Origin: a virus | Reading direction: 5' to 3' (one strand) | Virus record (IMG/VR): IMGVR_UViG_3300037445_000039 | Location: 1-40,943 of that record | DNA length: 40,943 nt | Shown: positions 724-9,488 of the stretch, piece by piece | Numbering within the stretch: the first letter of the stretch is position 1 | How the letters are laid out: each line of letters starts with the position of its first letter | Notes under the pieces: model-generated | Databases searched by the model: none | What the model saw: only the letters and a program-made list of their open reading frames with translations | Told to the model about the DNA's origin: nothing | Made by a program: the position numbers and the translations under genes

Positions 724-773
724 TGGCGCGCCCGGCAGGATTCGAACCTGCGACCTTTGGCTCCGGAGGCCAA
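724..773 (-). other. attP core: 3' half of tRNA-Arg(CCG), from anticodon arm to CCA; no 5' half present
   Basis: The reverse complement reads TTGGC-CTCCGGA-GCCAA (anticodon CCG), AGGTC, GCAGG-TTCGAAT-CCTGC, CGGGCGC-G-CCA. Upstream sequence lacks the GCGCCCG acceptor strand and a D arm. It abuts the integrase stop codon. Confidence 0.8.
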
Positions 774-787
774 CGTTTCACGTGGAA

Positions 788-1864
788 CTACGAGGCTTTC
801 CGGCGAGTGCCCCGTTTCGGTGCCCCGCTTCGCTGCGCGGCGGCCAGCTTGGGCAGGGCCTTGCTAATGTGCTGCGAGATGGCGCCCATGATGTAGCGCC
901 ACGACGTGCGCGGATCGCGATGATCCAGCAATTCTTGCGCAGCGCGCTGCTCGCTGACGCGATAAGCCTCCGTCGCAAACGAGTGGCGAAGATCGTACGG
1001 CCGTCCGATCTTGACGCCTGCGGCCTGACAGGCCAGAATCCACGCTTTCCGTAGCGAGCTGGTGGAGAAGGTCCCCGTGGCCTTCGCGGCCAGCCACGCC
1101 TTGATCGCGTCCACACCCGCCGGCGTCAGGGGATACCAGCGCCCTTTCGTCCCGCCGCCTTTCCGTCGCCCCTGCACGAAGACTCGGCGCCGGTGGAGCT
1201 CGACGTGGCCTTGGTCGGGGTCGATGCGCATGATCTGCGCCGGCGGAATGCCGGTGTAGGCGATGAGCCCGAGTCGCGCCGGACTCTTCTTGCCGCGGAT
1301 CTTGGAGAGGATCCGTCGGATGGTCGCGTAGGTGTAGCCGCGCGGTTGTGGGTCAGGCTCACGGAATTTTTTGATGGCGCGGACGGGATTTTCCGCGGTC
1401 GGTCCGTCTAACGTCGTGTAGAGGTGGAGGATGGCCGTGCGCCGATGGTTCACGGTGCTGGCGGCGTAGGGCTTTTTCTCCTTGCCCCGCGGTTCCGTCG
1501 CCCAGCGGTGCAGGACGGCGGCGATCTCGGCCCCGGTCACCGTGTGGCGCCGACGGTGCCCAAACTCTGCGCTCCACAAGGCGATGTCCGCGGCGCGCAT
1601 CACGTAGCTGGGCATCGCCTTCACCGCCTCGAGGTACCGGCGCGCGTCATCCGCGAAGGTGCCTGGCGTGGTCGTGCGCGCCTTGTGCCGTCGCCGCAGT
1701 TCGACCCGCCGCTCCTCCTGCCACGCCTTCATCGCCTTCACGTCGGCGGTCAGCGGATAGCGTTTCTCCTCGCGGTGCTTCGCGATTTCCACGCGGACGG
1801 CGTAGCCCAGATCGTCGCGGAAGATCCCCCGCGCGACGCGGTGGCGGCGACTCTGGCGCGGCAT
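788..1864 (-). CDS. int: Tyrosine recombinase / phage integrase
   Basis: 358 aa. C-terminal RPYDLRHSFAT...LLDHRDPRTSWRY gives the R, HxxR and Y catalytic signature. Adjacent to the tRNA-fragment attP. Confidence 0.95.
   Translation of the reverse strand: MPRQSRRHRVARGIFRDDLGYAVRVEIAKHREEKRYPLTADVKAMKAWQEERRVELRRRHKARTTTPGTFADDARRYLEAVKAMPSYVMRAADIALWSAEFGHRRRHTVTGAEIAAVLHRWATEPRGKEKKPYAASTVNHRRTAILHLYTTLDGPTAENPVRAIKKFREPDPQPRGYTYATIRRILSKIRGKKSPARLGLIAYTGIPPAQIMRIDPDQGHVELHRRRVFVQGRRKGGGTKGRWYPLTPAGVDAIKAWLAAKATGTFSTSSLRKAWILACQAAGVKIGRPYDLRHSFATEAYRVSEQRAAQELLDHRDPRTSWRYIMGAISQHISKALPKLAAAQRSGAPKRGTRRKAS
807..827 (+). promoter_or_regulatory. attP right arm: two more GTGCCCCG repeats (807, 820) inside the 3' end of int
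   Basis: GTGCCCCGTTTCG at 807 and GGTGCCCCGCTTCGCTG at 819, in the same orientation as the left-arm copies. Confidence 0.6.
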
Positions 1865-2434: not shown

Positions 2435-2454
2435 GGTGGTCGAAGGCGACCACC
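2435..2454 (-). terminator. 8-bp hairpin with a tetraloop (GGTGGTCG aagg CGACCACC) just downstream of the repressor gene
   Basis: Perfect inverted repeat read in the 83-146 nt spacer after the repressor stop codon. No U tract follows. Confidence 0.35.
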
Positions 2455-2488
2455 CGGCCCTGAGACGCCGAGCGCGAGGCCGAAGCGC

Positions 2489-3046
2489 TCACGCTTTTGG
2501 GCCGGTTCCCGTACCCTTGGCCTCCCGTTCTGCGATACCTGCTGCAAAGTTGACGCAATGCACGGCGAAATACTCCCGCCGATGCTCCGGACAAAGCTTC
2601 CACGCGCCACGTATCAGGTCGAAAATATCTGGTTCCCCCACGCGCGCCTCCTGCCCTGCCGGCGTGCTGGATTGAGTAGCCCCGGATGTAGCCGATAACG
2701 GGCTGGCGATGTGCACGCCCGCGGTGACCTCAGGCACCGACACTTTTCCACCGCTCCGCTCGGCGACCAGGAATTGTGCGAGTTCTCCCACGGGCACGTC
2801 ATAAATTTGCGCCAATCCCCACAACACGCCTGCGTCCGGCGCCATGACCGTGCCCTTCTCGTACTCCGACAGGGTTGAGCGATCGAGCTGCAGCCCATAT
2901 TTCACCGCCAAGCGATTCGCAACGTGCTCCTGGCTCCGCTTCTTGTTCCCAATCTTCACGGCCTCTCGAAGCGCTTTGAGCCGGGCACCAAAACGGGGAA
3001 CGACCACGGGACGGGGCGCGCCTGAATTTTTTCGACGGCTAACCAT
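2489..3046 (-). CDS. CI-like repressor: XRE-family HTH with a non-S24 C-terminal domain
   Basis: 185 aa. SQEHVANRLAVKYGLQLDRSTLSEYEKG is an HTH_3-type motif. Divergent from the Cro-like gene. No Ala-Gly or Ser..Lys peptidase motifs were seen. Confidence 0.85.
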   Translation of the reverse strand: MVSRRKNSGAPRPVVVPRFGARLKALREAVKIGNKKRSQEHVANRLAVKYGLQLDRSTLSEYEKGTVMAPDAGVLWGLAQIYDVPVGELAQFLVAERSGGKVSVPEVTAGVHIASPLSATSGATQSSTPAGQEARVGEPDIFDLIRGAWKLCPEHRREYFAVHCVNFAAGIAEREAKGTGTGPKA

Positions 3047-3071
3047 GTGTTAACGCAGAGGTTAGCGTGTC

Positions 3072-3089
3072 TGGTCGCGCGATAGACCA
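3072..3089. promoter_or_regulatory. Inverted repeat TGGTC-N8-GACCA in the switch region (candidate operator)
   Basis: Read directly in the 99-bp cI/cro intergenic region. Confidence 0.35.
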
Positions 3090-3103
3090 CAACAGGCCCA
3101 AAA

Positions 3104-3125
3104 AGTCGTTGACACGTCCACGACT
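3104..3125. promoter_or_regulatory. Inverted repeat AGTCGT-N10-ACGACT overlapping the -35 element of the rightward promoter (candidate operator)
   Basis: 6-bp arms flank and overlap TTGACA at 3109-3114. Confidence 0.4.
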
Positions 3126-3137
3126 GAGGCGTAATCT
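3109..3137 (+). promoter_or_regulatory. Sigma70-type early rightward promoter: TTGACA, 17-nt spacer, TAATCT
   Basis: -35 at 3109-3114 and -10 at 3132-3137. The cro-like ATG at 3146 lies 8 nt after the -10 element and has no SD. Confidence 0.7.
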
Positions 3138-3145
3138 CGTGCCGT

Positions 3146-3388
3146 ATGCCACGAAACACTCACCCGCGACCGCGCTACAACGCGCGTCTCCTTGCCGAAG
3201 ACATGGGGGCGCGCGGCTGGCAAGCCAAAGACATCGCGCGCATCGCTAACGTGTCCTCCCGGCAGGTTTCCCGTTTTCTCTGCGGCGATGTGCAGACCGC
3301 AAAGATGGCGAGGGTGCTTGCCGGCGCGCTGGGCCGGTCCCCGGCCCGCTACTTGATCCGCACGGTTCAGCCGGAGCCAGTTCGATGA
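3146..3388 (+). CDS. Cro-like HTH regulator
   Basis: 80 aa. WQAKDIARIANVSSRQVSRFLCGD is an HTH motif. First gene of the rightward operon. Confidence 0.8.
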   Translation: MPRNTHPRPRYNARLLAEDMGARGWQAKDIARIANVSSRQVSRFLCGDVQTAKMARVLAGALGRSPARYLIRTVQPEPVR

Positions 3389-3828
3389 GCGCCCTTCCTA
3401 ATTCGAGCAACAGGATGCTGCGGGCTGACTCATCAACGCCACGCAATAACGTCGGGAATACAGGGTCAATCGTGATCAAGACGCATGAGGATGAGTCCCC
3501 GCTCGGTCAATTGGATCTCGCCTCGGCCATCTCGATCGCGCTCGATCGGGCGGGTATCTCGCACAAGGCGGCGGCGCTCACGATGGGCATCGACCCCGCG
3601 CAGTGGTCGCGGCAGTTGCATGGCGACGGGCATATCAGCTTTCAGCGTCTGCAGAAGTTGTCGGCGGAGTTCTGGCGTGAGTTCCTCCCGTTACTCGCAA
3701 GCCCCTTGCAACTGACGATGAGCCACCAGGATTTCGCCGACTTCGCGATGTTGAAGATCGCCGCGCTCGTGCAGGAGATCGGCACCTACGTCATTCAGGT
3801 GCGGGCGCAGCAAAGGCGGGTGGCATGA
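3385..3828 (+). CDS. HTH protein, possibly a CII-like early regulator
   Basis: 147 aa. ISHKAAALTMGIDPAQWSRQLHG is an HTH motif. ATGA coupling at both ends. The exact start is uncertain. Confidence 0.65.
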   Translation: MSALPNSSNRMLRADSSTPRNNVGNTGSIVIKTHEDESPLGQLDLASAISIALDRAGISHKAAALTMGIDPAQWSRQLHGDGHISFQRLQKLSAEFWREFLPLLASPLQLTMSHQDFADFAMLKIAALVQEIGTYVIQVRAQQRRVA

Positions 3829-6181: not shown

Positions 6182-6382
6182 TTCATGTCTGCGGCAGCGT
6201 GGACGGTGACACGCCTGCGTTTCTGCTCACGGACGTTGGGTTGTGCCGGGTCATGACCGGAGCGAGCAACAGCAACGGACGCAGCTTCTGGCAATCGGAA
6301 TCTGACAACGCGTGAGGCGGTCCGATCGTCACGGGAGAGCCGGGTCAGTACCGGCCCGCAGACTTCAGATAGGAGCATGCAC

Positions 6383-7354
6383 ATGGAAGCGGTTCGAGAC
6401 ATCAGCACGCGCGCGCAGCAGACCGGCCTCGTGCGCGCCCTGCCGCAGCCGGAGGCGCTACAGCCGGCCGCGCCGAGCGCCGTGCAGTTCACCGAAGAGC
6501 AGGTCGCGCTCATCAAGCGAACGATCGCCAAGGGCGCGACGGACGACGAGTTCAAGTTGTTTCTGTGGCAGTGCAAGCGCACGCGACTGGACCCATTCGC
6601 GCGTCAGATTTTCGCGGTGAAAAGATGGGACCGCGAGCAGAGCCGCGAGGTGATGCAGACACAGATCAGCATCGATGGCCTCCGTCTTGTGGCCGAGCGC
6701 ACCGGCGAGTATCGCGGCCAGACGCCGGCCCAGTGGTGCGGCCCCGATGGCGCATGGACCGATGTGTGGCTCAACAAAGAGCCGCCGACGGCCGCGCGCA
6801 TCGGCGTCCACCGTCAGGGCTTCGTCGAGCCGGTGTATGCGGTGGCGCGCTACGACGCCTACGTGCAGACGAAGAAGGGCGGCGAGCCCAACTCGATGTG
6901 GTCGAAGATGCCGGACAACCAGCTCGCCAAATGCGCCGAGGCGCTAGCGCTGCGCAAGGCGTTCCCGCAGGAACTGAGCGGCCTCTACACCGGCGACGAG
7001 ATGGCACAGGCGGGCTCCGATCTCGTGAACACCAACACCGGCGAAGTGGTGAACGATGACGGTGCGCTGCGCGTCGTGCACGTCGAGCCCTTCACCGGCA
7101 AGACGAAAACCGGCCGCGACTTTTCGTGCTGGGATGTCGCTTTCAGCGACGGGCGCACCGCGCGCACGTTCTCCCGCACGATGGGCGAGGACGCGATGGC
7201 CTGCTGCGAGGATCGAACGCCCGTCGAGGCCGTAACGGCGACCGCGAAGAGCGGCAAGTTCCTCGACCTTATGGAGCTGCATGCGGTGCTCGATGTCGCG
7301 CCGGAGCCGGGATCATTCGATGGCCCGCAGGACGGAGAGGAGCAGCCGTTCTAA
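6383..7354 (+). CDS. bet: Single-strand annealing recombinase, Bet/RecT family
   Basis: [19 protein letters not shown]...[36 protein letters not shown] is a Bet-type signature. AGGAG lies 7 nt upstream of the ATG at 6383; the alternative ATG at 6377 is only 1 nt from it. There is a C-terminal extension of about 100 aa. Confidence 0.9.
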
Positions 7355-8025
7355 TGGCCTTCGTCATCACCGACATCGAGACGGCGCCGCTGCAGGACGT
7401 GGATGTGTGGCTGCCTGAATTCAAGCCGGCCGGCAACATCAAGGACGCGGAGAAACGCGCGGCCAACGTCGCCGAGAAGCGCGAGAAAGCGATCAGCGAG
7501 GCGGCTCTCGATGCGGACCTCTGCCGAATCGTGGCACTCGGCGCATGGTGGCCAGATGATCCGCACCCCACGATCTACCTCTGTGGCACTGAGGACGAGG
7601 AACGCGAAGCGCTGCGTGAATTCTGGGAGATCTGGACGCTCGAAAAGCGTCGGAACCTCAATCTCCAGTTAACGGGATACAACGTCCTATCTTTCGACAT
7701 CGTCGTGATGCTCCGTCGCTCGCTCTATCTCGGCGTGAAGGCTCCCGTGTTGCACCGCGGCCGCTATCGCCATGATGACGTGTGCGATCTCTGGTCGCTG
7801 CTGTCGGAAGACGGCACGCTGCCGTGGCGCACGCTGTCTTACTACCACAAGCGTCTCGGCTGTCCGCCTGTCGCTGACACCATCACGGGGGCCGACGTTC
7901 CGGCCTGTGTGGCCCGCGGGGAGTGGGACAAGGTCAGAGCTCACCTGCTGGCCGATCTCGTTCGCACGAGGGACGTGGCGCGGCGTATGGGAGTGCTCGC
8001 ACAGGAGACGGTCCATGCCGCATGA
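7354..8025 (+). CDS. DEDD (DnaQ/PolB-exo-like) 3'-5' exonuclease
   Basis: 223 aa. FVITDIETAP (Exo I) and GYNVLSFDIVVMLRRSL (Exo II). TAATG overlap with bet. Confidence 0.75.
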   Translation: MAFVITDIETAPLQDVDVWLPEFKPAGNIKDAEKRAANVAEKREKAISEAALDADLCRIVALGAWWPDDPHPTIYLCGTEDEEREALREFWEIWTLEKRRNLNLQLTGYNVLSFDIVVMLRRSLYLGVKAPVLHRGRYRHDDVCDLWSLLSEDGTLPWRTLSYYHKRLGCPPVADTITGADVPACVARGEWDKVRAHLLADLVRTRDVARRMGVLAQETVHAA

Positions 8026-8287
8026 AACGCCGTATACGGTCTGCACGCCCAGCGGCCAGGAGCTGGCTCGCTTCGCGCTCTCGATGCACGTGCCGGTCTT
8101 TTGCGCGCAGGTACTGGAGGCCTATGGGGAGCTGCGGCTGCACTGTGCGTGCAATTGGTTGGAGGCCGCGAGCGTGTGTGCGGACGAGGGCGAGATGGAC
8201 TTCGTGATCACGGCGGGTGTGTTCGGCGAGCCGTGCTTCACGCGCGTCCTGACGTCCGCGGCGACGCCCGCGCACCATCCGGTGTAG
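8015..8287 (+). CDS. Cys-rich hypothetical protein (90 aa)
   Basis: AGGAG lies 7 nt upstream. 11-nt overlap with the exonuclease gene. Confidence 0.6.
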   Translation: MPHETPYTVCTPSGQELARFALSMHVPVFCAQVLEAYGELRLHCACNWLEAASVCADEGEMDFVITAGVFGEPCFTRVLTSAATPAHHPV

Positions 8288-8290
8288 GCG

Positions 8291-8497
8291 ATGGCCATCG
8301 ACGCGTCCACGTTTCAGTTCGGCAGCGTCCTGGTGACGGTGCAGCGGTTCAGCAGCGGCGCGGTAAACGTGCGCCTCACGGATAGCGAAGGCAAGCACGG
8401 CGGCTGGTCGATGCACGACCCGGAGGCGGCGAAGGAGTTCCTCGCGGAGTTGTGTCGGCTGACGCTGGGCCAGCAGCACGGACGGTTTGAGTTTTGA
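8291..8497 (+). CDS. Hypothetical protein (68 aa)
   Basis: Compact ORF in the operon frame pattern. Confidence 0.6.
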   Translation: MAIDASTFQFGSVLVTVQRFSSGAVNVRLTDSEGKHGGWSMHDPEAAKEFLAELCRLTLGQQHGRFEF

Positions 8498-8537
8498 GTG
8501 TGAGCTTCTTCGGTCGCGACATGAACGAGGACGAATC

Positions 8538-8718
8538 CGGCGCAAGAGTCGCGTGGAGTAGGCCGGCGGGAGTGCTGACGCGGAAAGGGCGGCGCGAGAA
8601 AGCCTGGGGCCAGTAGAGCACAGAACGGCTTGACAGGGCGGAGAGACGCCCATCGCCAGCGCTGAGTGACCGGCGCGATACAAAGCGGGTCACGGTTCGC
8701 CGTTCCCTCACGGCGCGA
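8538..8718 (+). repeat. Iteron-like repeats: CGGCGCGA at 8590, 8671 and 8711, plus CGGCGCAA at 8538
   Basis: Three exact 8-mers are each followed by an A-rich tail (GAAAG, TACAAAG, CAAGG). About 0.04 copies are expected by chance in 600 bp at this composition. Confidence 0.6.
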
Positions 8719-9026
8719 CAAGGGCGGGCCTCTTCCAGGCCCGTGCCGGTCCGACTAAGGGGCAGACAGGATTGGTGGCTTGTGTGCGGGTGCAATTCCC
8801 GCACGCGCGGCGTGAGACCCCGCGCTCCTCCCCGGCGACGCACAGTCAAGAACGCACCAGCGGGCCTGCTACGGCCGCCCGCCTCGCGAGAAGCCCCTAA
8901 CGCTGCGGGGCAGTCGGCAAGAAAGCAGCGGGTATACGTGACCCATCGTCTCACCCGGGGCCTCCGTGGCGCCGCCTTTTGCGCAGGGCTTTTGCGCGAA
9001 CAGGGAATATGCGAAAAGCCACGCTT

Positions 9027-9096
9027 GTACGGTTTTCTGATCTGTACAGAGTTCAAGTACGGAGCGAAGTACACACCATCGGTACTCGTGAGGTAC
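9027..9096. repeat. Six phased GTAC motifs immediately upstream of ORF 9105
   Basis: GTAC at 9027, 9044, 9057, 9069, 9082 and 9093, with spacings of 17, 13, 12, 13 and 11 bp. About 0.2 copies are expected by chance. Confidence 0.6.
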
Positions 9097-9104
9097 AGGC
9101 GGGC

Positions 9105-9488
9105 ATGCCGGAGACACGACGGGAGCGCGATGCAGTCCTCGAGGCACGGTTCGAACGGTTCTGGGCCGCGTATCCCCGGAAGGACGCCAAGTTCCGCGCC
9201 CTTGCGGTCTGGCGGTGGTTAGCGCCAAGCGAGGATCTGCTTGGCCGCATGTTGAGGACACTCGAATGGCAACGCCGGGATCGCCAGTGGCTGGAAGACG
9301 GGGGGTATTGGGTGCCGTACGCGAGGGCGTGGCTCGCGGGACGCCGCTGGGAGGACGAACCGTTCGAGCCGCAGAGCGCGATGGCGCGGCGATCGCCCGG
9401 CCCCCAGACGCGCACGCAGCGCGTCGAGGCACGCAATCAGGAGACGCTGCGGCGGTTCCTGGCCCGCGAACGTGGCGAGGAGCCGTAG
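9105..9488 (+). CDS. Conserved phage protein with an FERFWAAYPRK motif, possibly replication-associated
   Basis: 127 aa from the ATG at 9105. The upstream part of the track ORF lies in the non-coding gap. Confidence 0.6.
   Translation: MPETRRERDAVLEARFERFWAAYPRKDAKFRALAVWRWLAPSEDLLGRMLRTLEWQRRDRQWLEDGGYWVPYARAWLAGRRWEDEPFEPQSAMARRSPGPQTRTQRVEARNQETLRRFLARERGEEP

What the first reader, a model, noticed from the sequence alone, without database searches (positions are those of the whole stretch)
8498..9104. 607-bp ORF-free gap with CGGCGCGA iterons and serial GC hairpins: candidate origin and/or structured RNA
Genes in this genome are otherwise packed with 4-nt overlaps. This stretch has stop codons in all three + frames, and the only minus-strand ORFs are Arg/Ser/Pro-rich shadow ORFs. 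It contains CGGCGCGA at 8590, 8671 and 8711 and CGGCGCAA at 8538, each followed by an A-rich tail. About 0.04 such 8-mers would be expected by chance. It also contains a chain of local helices: 8636-8651, 8666-8693, 8698-8715, 8725-8743, 8784-8804 (7-bp stem with a T-loop-like TGCAATT loop), 8805-8825, 8860-8882 and 8901-8930. A direct repeat CTTTTGCGC occurs at 8976 and 8989. Two of the iterons sit inside hairpins. The gap lies directly upstream of the only replication-like genes.
Basis: partly seen in the sequence, partly recalled or inferred. Interest (0 to 1): 0.75.

Follow-up and report, generated by a model that had tools for sequence, protein, structure and literature searches.

The report
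Mosaic phage intergenic region with RNA hairpins
The gap is a real non-coding stretch in a temperate phage, but it is a patchwork: a widespread, previously undescribed two-hairpin RNA motif, one further conserved hairpin, about 280 bases that cannot be tested, and a cluster of GTAC repeats just before the replication gene; the proposed CGGCGCGA iterons are not supported.

Summary
The gap 8498-9104 is non-coding: it has no codon-position GC signal and no gene relic. CGGCGCGA does occur at the stated sites, but the repeat is not significant (29% of 607-bp windows hold some 8-mer three times) and only the 8671 copy is conserved in relatives.

The gap is a mosaic of four parts.
- M1 (8498-8652) ends in a two-hairpin motif, GGGAA-P1-UGACA-P2 with a GAGAGA loop. 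The motif occurs in more than 33 unrelated phage contigs, covaries strongly and matches no Rfam family.
- M2 (8653-8696) is a hairpin (8666-8693) with compensatory changes in two relatives.
- M3 (8697-8975) is unique, so its hairpins cannot be tested. Its folding energy is not unusual.
- M4 (8976-9104) is AT-richer and holds six GTAC sites spaced 11-17 bp apart. This is the only such cluster in the window, and it recurs in relatives.

Eleven related phages carry a roughly 230-nt covarying, pseudoknotted RNA with a terminator in the same slot. My models of that RNA do not detect the window.

Verdict: "structured RNA" is partly supported, the CGGCGCGA iteron origin is not, and the GTAC array is an untested origin or operator candidate.

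The parts
8498..9104 (.). Non-coding intergenic gap, 65% GC overall, between the recombination module (RecT 6377-7354, exonuclease 7354-8025) and the replication module
   Evidence: No GC3 periodicity. No relic of relatives' accessory ORFs by tblastn. Flanking genes assigned by Pfam and PHROGs.
8521..8616 (+). Possible 31-aa ORF (40 aa from TTG 8494); weak and unsupported
   Evidence: GC3 is 0.80 in this frame over 8500-8619. The ORF is listed. No homologue was found.
8461..8652 (+). Patch 99% identical to L131 (an otherwise unrelated 56.8-kb phage contig). Identity stops at the last base of hairpin P2.
8594..8654 (+). Two-hairpin GAGAGA-loop motif: GAGAA 8596-8600; P1 8601-8604 with 8627-8630; UGACA 8631-8635; P2 8636-8640 with 8647-8651; loop 8641-8646
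   Evidence: Model R3 scores 50.8 bits here, but the window was in the seed alignment. Family covariation is shown. The 22-mer is unique in the window, with 0 expected by chance.
8653..8696 (+). Conserved block shared with L001 and L109. Hairpin 8666-8671 with 8688-8693; 16-nt loop containing GGCGCGAUAC.
   Evidence: blastn: 29 nt at 93% identity, E 1.8e-4. Stems are GTGACC/GGTCAC in the window, CTGACC/GGTCAG in L001 and CCATCC/GGATGG in L109.
8697..8975 (+). Lineage-specific spacer, 70.6% GC, with predicted hairpins. Untestable: the only homologue, L100, is identical.
   Evidence: No significant similarity to relatives. MFE not significant. GC content.
8976..9000 (+). Hairpin formed by the CTTTTGCGC direct repeat, at the place where relatives carry an intrinsic terminator. 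It has no U-tract.
   Evidence: (no + strand terminator found).
9027..9096 (.). Array of six GTAC-core sites at 9027, 9044, 9057, 9069, 9082 and 9093, in a 52.7% GC segment that abuts the start codon
   Evidence: Genome-wide rate is 0.2 per 100 bp, and no other 80-bp window holds more than 3. The equivalent clusters are the densest in 9 of 11 relatives' loci that carry the slot.
9105..9488 (+). Replication gene: only the C-terminal domain of phage initiator / primosomal protein I families
   Evidence: PHROG 9474, 9327 and 270 match only their C-terminal halves. The start Met-Pro is invariant among homologues.

Best explanation
The gap is a non-coding, mosaic control region inside the early operon of a temperate phage, probably of Usitatibacter. 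It is read on the + strand together with its neighbours.

Shown:
- It begins with a two-hairpin RNA motif (GGGAA-P1-UGACA-P2 with a GAGAGA loop) that many unrelated phages carry in short intergenic spacers. In some of them it sits directly in front of tRNA genes or other structured RNAs.
- A second hairpin follows, with a conserved loop and covarying stem.
- The gap ends in a GTAC repeat array at the replication gene.

Inferred:
- The motif is a protein-recognised RNA signal for processing, stability or antitermination. It marks the 5' edge of a structured leader or 3'-UTR RNA.
- In relatives, that RNA ends in an intrinsic terminator and so gates read-through into the replication genes.
- The GTAC array is the DNA site (origin or operator) of a phage DNA-binding protein.
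For: Non-coding.

Motif:
- P2 is paired in 100% of cells, with 10-11 compensatory changes at each of the three free pairs.
- P1 is found in 16 of 24 sequences against 7.0 expected, exceeded in 0 of 1000 permutations. The fourth P1 pair, which was not used for selection, is complementary in 13 of 16.
- In the model-based alignment 98.5% of cells are paired, 8 of 9 pairs show compensatory change, and 0 of 500 shuffles reach the observed score.
- P1 loop length varies from 8 to about 60 nt, and the T/G before GACA covaries with its partner. Both argue for RNA rather than a promoter.

Context: the motif lies 12-70 nt before start codons, or 8-20 nt before tRNA genes.

Hairpin 8666-8693: compensatory changes in L001 and L109.

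Same slot in 11 relatives:
- The 5' domain is 94.6% paired, 16 of 26 pairs are compensatory, and 0 of 500 shuffles reach the score.
- The + strand is favoured, 94.6% against 87.1% paired.
- The pseudoknot partners match over 9-12 bp within a sequence, mostly 4-7 bp between the main subgroups.
- A terminator is present.
- The gap elements are 88-96% identical between phages whose flanking genes are about 76% identical.

GTAC array.
Against: - Models R1 and R2 and an nhmmer profile of the relatives' RNA do not detect the window.
- 8697-8975 has no homologue and no unusual folding energy.
- No terminator or promoter was found in the window's gap.
- There are no expression data.
- The motif collection was seeded with patterns that fixed the loop and flanks, and the model-based alignment is fitted to the structure.
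- The function of every part is inferred.
Confidence: 0.45

Rival explanations
1. The GC-rich part is a free-standing, trans-acting stable non-coding RNA. It would be cut out of the early transcript at the motif, and would not be a cis-acting leader.
For: In relatives the RNA starts 5-15 nt after the upstream stop codon and ends in a terminator hairpin, as 3'-UTR-derived RNAs do. It has an elaborate pseudoknotted fold with conserved loops. The motif also precedes tRNA arrays.
Against: No target, no partner protein and no expression data are known. The window lacks a terminator.
Confidence: 0.25
2. The functional element is DNA: the GTAC array with its AT-richer flank is the replication origin or an operator. 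The GC-rich stretch is recombination debris without a function of its own.
For: The GTAC cluster is unique in the window and recurs in relatives next to the replication gene. The gap is mosaic, with a sharp homology breakpoint. 8697-8975 is not conserved.
Against: Non-coding elements in this slot are more conserved than the flanking genes in relatives. Covariation shows selection on pairing. The 127-aa protein lacks the DNA-binding N-terminal half of its family.
Confidence: 0.2
3. One reading: the CGGCGCGA/CGGCGCAA copies are iterons of an origin.
For: Four copies lie within 180 bp of each other, 0.4-0.6 kb upstream of the replication gene.
Against: A threefold 8-mer occurs in 29% of windows of this size. 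The 8-mer occurs 13 times across the window. The copies at 8538 and 8590 lie in a patch shared with an unrelated phage, and 8590 overlaps the motif's GAGAA/P1. Copy 8671 is a conserved hairpin loop. Copy 8711 is not conserved.
Confidence: 0.04
4. The 22-nt motif is a promoter, with TTGACA as the -35 box or a sigma-32/ECF-like geometry, and not an RNA structure.
For: L127 reads TTGACA-N18-TATAAT in front of a tRNA array. The motif lies upstream of genes.
Against: Most copies read GTGACA and have no -10 box. The T/G before GACA covaries with its P1 partner. The distance from GGAAC to CGT varies from 14 to 20 nt and more. In L004 and L108 the downstream RNA helix starts 1-2 nt after P2.
Confidence: 0.08

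Closest known systems
Lambdoid nut sites (boxB hairpin bound by N) and HK022 put RNAs
   Same: A 5-bp stem with an all-purine loop. A cis RNA element inside an early operon, upstream of a terminator and of the replication genes. put consists of two hairpins. (These comparisons rest on my own knowledge.)
   Different: The loop is a GAGAGA hexaloop, not a GNRA-like pentaloop. No boxA lies nearby. The motif also occurs between head genes and before tRNA arrays. No N-like protein was tested.
Iteron origins (lambda ori, plasmid rep-proximal iterons)
   Same: Short repeats at roughly helical spacing beside the initiator gene, with an AT-richer flank.
   Different: The repeat core is only GTAC plus 2-3 flanking bases. 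Relatives arrange the sites as a large inverted repeat. The initiator lacks a DNA-binding domain. No binding or replication data exist.
Leader attenuators of rep genes (pT181/pIP501) and P4 CI RNA immunity
   Same: In relatives, a structured leader with alternative pairings and a terminator lies ahead of the replication genes.
   Different: No antisense transcript or target repeat was identified. The window has no terminator. A CI-like repressor protein is present at 2489-3046.
Large phage-associated RNAs in Rfam (GOLLD, ROOL) and other Rfam families
   Same: Ornate, covarying RNA encoded by phages.
   Different: No Rfam match, either at the gathering threshold or at E<=1-10, in the window or in relatives.
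Start-associated sequences and boundary sequences of mosaic phages
   Same: A conserved short intergenic element near gene starts, sitting at a homology breakpoint between modules. (The comparison rests on my own knowledge.)
   Different: Here pairing, not only sequence, is conserved. The element is usually single-copy.

Membership tests
Any Rfam 15 family | Covariance-model score at or above the gathering threshold, or at least E<1 | tested here: not met
   The only hit is a tRNA at 727-796. The gap gives only chance-level hits with E>=1.8. Relatives give none.
Iteron-type origin (CGGCGCGA) | Repeats more frequent than chance and conserved in relatives | tested here: not met
Iteron-type origin (GTAC array) | A clustered repeat next to the initiator gene, conserved in relatives, with an AT-rich flank | tested here: inconclusive
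   The cluster is unique in the window and recurs in relatives. Segment GC is 52.7%. Binding and replication were not testable.
Slot RNA of related phages (B-type, models R1/R2) | A significant match to the 5'-domain and 3'-domain covariance models | tested here: not met
   No hit in the gap even with filters off. nhmmer gives none. Only 36 nt are shared with L108.
Two-hairpin GAGAGA motif (model R3) | GGGAA, P1, UGACA, 5-bp P2, GAGAGA loop | tested here: met
   All parts are present at 8596-8651. The window was part of the seed alignment.
Intrinsic terminator | A GC-rich hairpin followed by a U-tract on the + strand | tested here: not met
   None in window 8200-9400 on the + strand. Present in relatives.
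Decayed protein gene | Residual codon bias or similarity to relatives' proteins | tested here: not met
nut site | boxA (YGCTCTTWA) near the hairpin, and an N-type antiterminator | tested here: not met
   No boxA within 1 mismatch in 8300-9200. The N protein was not tested.

The most novel reading that the evidence does not exclude
The GAGAGA-loop two-hairpin element is a new, widespread phage RNA signal read by a conserved host or phage factor. It would define the 5' boundaries of tRNA arrays, structured RNAs and mRNAs, or make transcription terminator-resistant. The slot between the recombination and replication genes would then house a new class of pseudoknotted RNAs that gate phage replication.
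Probability: 0.3. Interest if true: 0.75.

Novelty: new variant of a known kind. Interest (0 to 1): 0.55.

Why it matters
If real, the two-hairpin motif would be an undescribed RNA signal shared by very different phages (42-69% GC). The slot RNA would be a new regulator of entry into phage replication. Both can be tested directly with the models built here. The result also shows that conserved hairpins can mark the exact breakpoints of phage mosaicism.

Tried and rejected
- tRNA/tmRNA and Rfam searches found nothing in the gap.
- blastn against cultured phages found no match for the window gap or for the relatives' RNA.
- I tried to place the window in the relatives' RNA family. Models R1 and R2, an nhmmer profile and Smith-Waterman against shuffles were all negative beyond the first ~40-70 nt of homologous sequence (8627-8696). 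The similarities I saw by eye (ATACG..., TCGTC.CACC, TGCAATT loop) are therefore not claimed.
- Pseudogene reading: rejected.
- The pattern GCGNNGANNNNCCGGCGCGATAC gave only spurious hits in coding sequence.
- A pseudoknot partner for the 8672-8687 loop: only GC-rich 6-7-mers at non-equivalent positions.
- RNAalifold on the three A-type sequences was not decisive.
- The small ORF has no homologue.
- A literature search for the motif sequence found no papers.
- Promoter reading of the motif: judged unlikely (see rival explanations).

Full report
**Setting.** The window is a temperate phage or prophage with 65% GC. It carries an integrase (788-1864, - strand) next to a tRNA-like site, then RecT (6377-7354) and a PolB-exonuclease-like gene (7354-8025). 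Small ORFs run up to 8497 and are followed by the gap. At 9105-9488 lies a 127-aa protein that matches only the C-terminal half of phage replication-initiator / primosomal protein I families. The exonuclease is identical to a protein of a Usitatibacter sp. MAG. L100 is the same phage from another sample, and its gap is identical.

**Observation.** The quoted sequences and coordinates are right. The gap has no codon-position GC signal, whereas its neighbours reach 0.8-0.95. It also holds no relic of the accessory ORFs that relatives carry here. One short ORF (8521-8616) sits in a frame with GC3 0.80, but it has no homologue.

The CGGCGCGA "iterons" do not stand up. The 8-mer occurs 13 times in the window, and 29% of 607-bp windows hold some 8-mer three times. 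Only the 8671 copy is conserved in relatives. Folding energy is ordinary on both strands, with z about -0.5. No Rfam family matches.

**Relatives.** Phages with the same gene order (exonuclease, small ORF, gap, replication gene) were collected through the replication protein and the exonuclease. Eleven of them carry a non-coding element of about 230 nt in this slot, which I call "B-type". Its features are:
- a long-range helix that encloses three hairpins;
- a pseudoknot from the first hairpin loop to a 3' segment;
- two further helices;
- an intrinsic terminator.

The 5' domain is 94.6% paired, 16 of 26 pairs show compensatory change, and 0 of 500 shuffles reach the observed score. Slid controls are about 40% paired. 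The 3' domain is 86% paired and also exceeds all shuffles. G-U pairs favour the + strand, 94.6% against 87.1%. Pseudoknot partners match over 9-12 bp within a sequence, mostly 4-7 bp between the main subgroups. These elements are 88-96% identical between phages whose exonuclease genes are about 76% identical. Rfam has no match.

**The window is not a detectable member of that family.** Models R1 and R2 (filters off) and an nhmmer profile miss it. Region 8697-8975 resembles nothing in the relatives beyond chance. Only two short pieces are shared:
- 8627-8662 with L108 and L004 (E 7e-6 and 0.005);
- 8653-8681 with L001 (E 1.8e-4).

**Mosaic structure.** Positions 8461-8652 are 99% identical to L131, an otherwise unrelated 56.8-kb phage contig. 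The identity stops exactly at the end of the hairpin 8636-8651. From this and the other comparisons the gap falls into four parts: M1 (8498-8652), M2 (8653-8696), M3 (8697-8975) and M4 (8976-9104).

**The hairpin 8636-8651 belongs to a wider motif.** Two pattern scans of IMG/VR gave 17 and 16 contigs. Their GC ranges from 42 to 69%, and the motif sits in varied contexts: between head genes, before terminase genes, before replication genes, and 8-20 nt before tRNA genes, including a 13-tRNA array. The positions left free in the patterns were always complementary, giving eight different stems.

An upstream helix, P1, follows a conserved GGGAA. It was found in 16 of 24 sequences against 7.0 expected, a count reached in 0 of 1000 permutations. 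Its fourth pair, which was not used for selection, is complementary in 13 of 16. In the alignment made with model R3, 98.5% of cells are paired, 8 of 9 pairs show compensatory change, and 0 of 500 shuffles reach the score. That alignment includes new variants and tandem copies.

Two observations argue for RNA structure rather than a promoter. P1 loop length is variable, and the base before GACA covaries with its partner. Caveats: the scan patterns fixed the loop and flanks, and the model-based alignment leans towards the model.

**M2.** The hairpin 8666-8693 keeps its pairing in L001 (outer G-C changed to C-G) and in L109 (TGACC/GGTCA changed to CATCC/GGATG). Its loop keeps GGCGCGAUAC. The L001 and L109 gap elements are 94.5% identical, against 75-80% for their flanking genes. 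A closing helix, CGCCAG with UUGGUG/UUGGCG about 112 nt apart, is possible in both the window and L001, but it is unproven.

**M4.** Six GTAC sites lie at 9027-9096, spaced 17, 13, 12, 13 and 11 bp apart, in a 52.7% GC segment. The genome-wide rate is 0.2 per 100 bp, and no other 80-bp window holds more than three. In nine relatives the densest GTAC cluster of the locus lies at the same place. There it is arranged as a large inverted repeat plus a conserved GGTACTCG. This array is the credible origin or operator candidate, but nothing here tests binding or replication.

**Conclusion.** The gap is a composite non-coding control region. Two RNA structural modules have comparative support. The remaining GC-rich 280 nt cannot be judged. 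The CGGCGCGA iteron idea fails. The GTAC array is the repeat feature worth testing. All functions are inferred. I favour a co-transcribed cis-acting or processed RNA followed by a DNA site for replication control, with confidence 0.45.

Noticed in passing
L119-L151; window 8594-8654; L004 2102-2160; L108 4674-4727: A two-hairpin GAGAGA-loop RNA motif is widespread in unrelated phage contigs. It occurs in tandem copies in L137 (3), L139 (2) and L148 (2), and directly before tRNA genes in L127, L133 and L120. No Rfam family or paper matches it.
   Followed up: partly
window 8461-8652 vs L131 1306-1497: A 190-nt patch is 99% identical between otherwise unrelated phages and ends exactly at the hairpin. 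This looks like a recombination breakpoint at a conserved element.
   Followed up: partly
L002, L003, L004, L009-L011, L013, L099, L107, L108, L118 (e.g. L010 60-300): A roughly 230-nt covarying, pseudoknotted RNA with a terminator lies in the slot between the recombination and replication genes. Its 3' segment is complementary to two loop sites and to another helix strand, so alternative pairings are possible.
   Followed up: partly
window 727-796 (-) and 788-1864 (-): A tRNA-like sequence (Rfam 40.6 bits, not called by ARAGORN) overlaps the end of the integrase gene. It is probably the attachment-site copy of a tRNA.
   Followed up: no
L116 5230-5340: A related phage has GTCACG/GTAACG direct repeats in the equivalent gap instead of an RNA-like element.
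   Followed up: no
L127 (oriented 2436-3734, then the motif, then tRNAs): A Ro60/TROVE-like RNA-binding protein gene (PHROG 850) is followed by the motif and a 13-tRNA array.
   Followed up: no
window 9105-9488: The replication protein holds only the C-terminal domain of its family. The DNA-binding N-terminal half found in PHROG 9474/270 members is absent.
   Followed up: partly
L128, about 20-200 nt after its motif copy: A duplicated CTAGACCTAA...GCGCGTATATTC element of unknown meaning.
   Followed up: no
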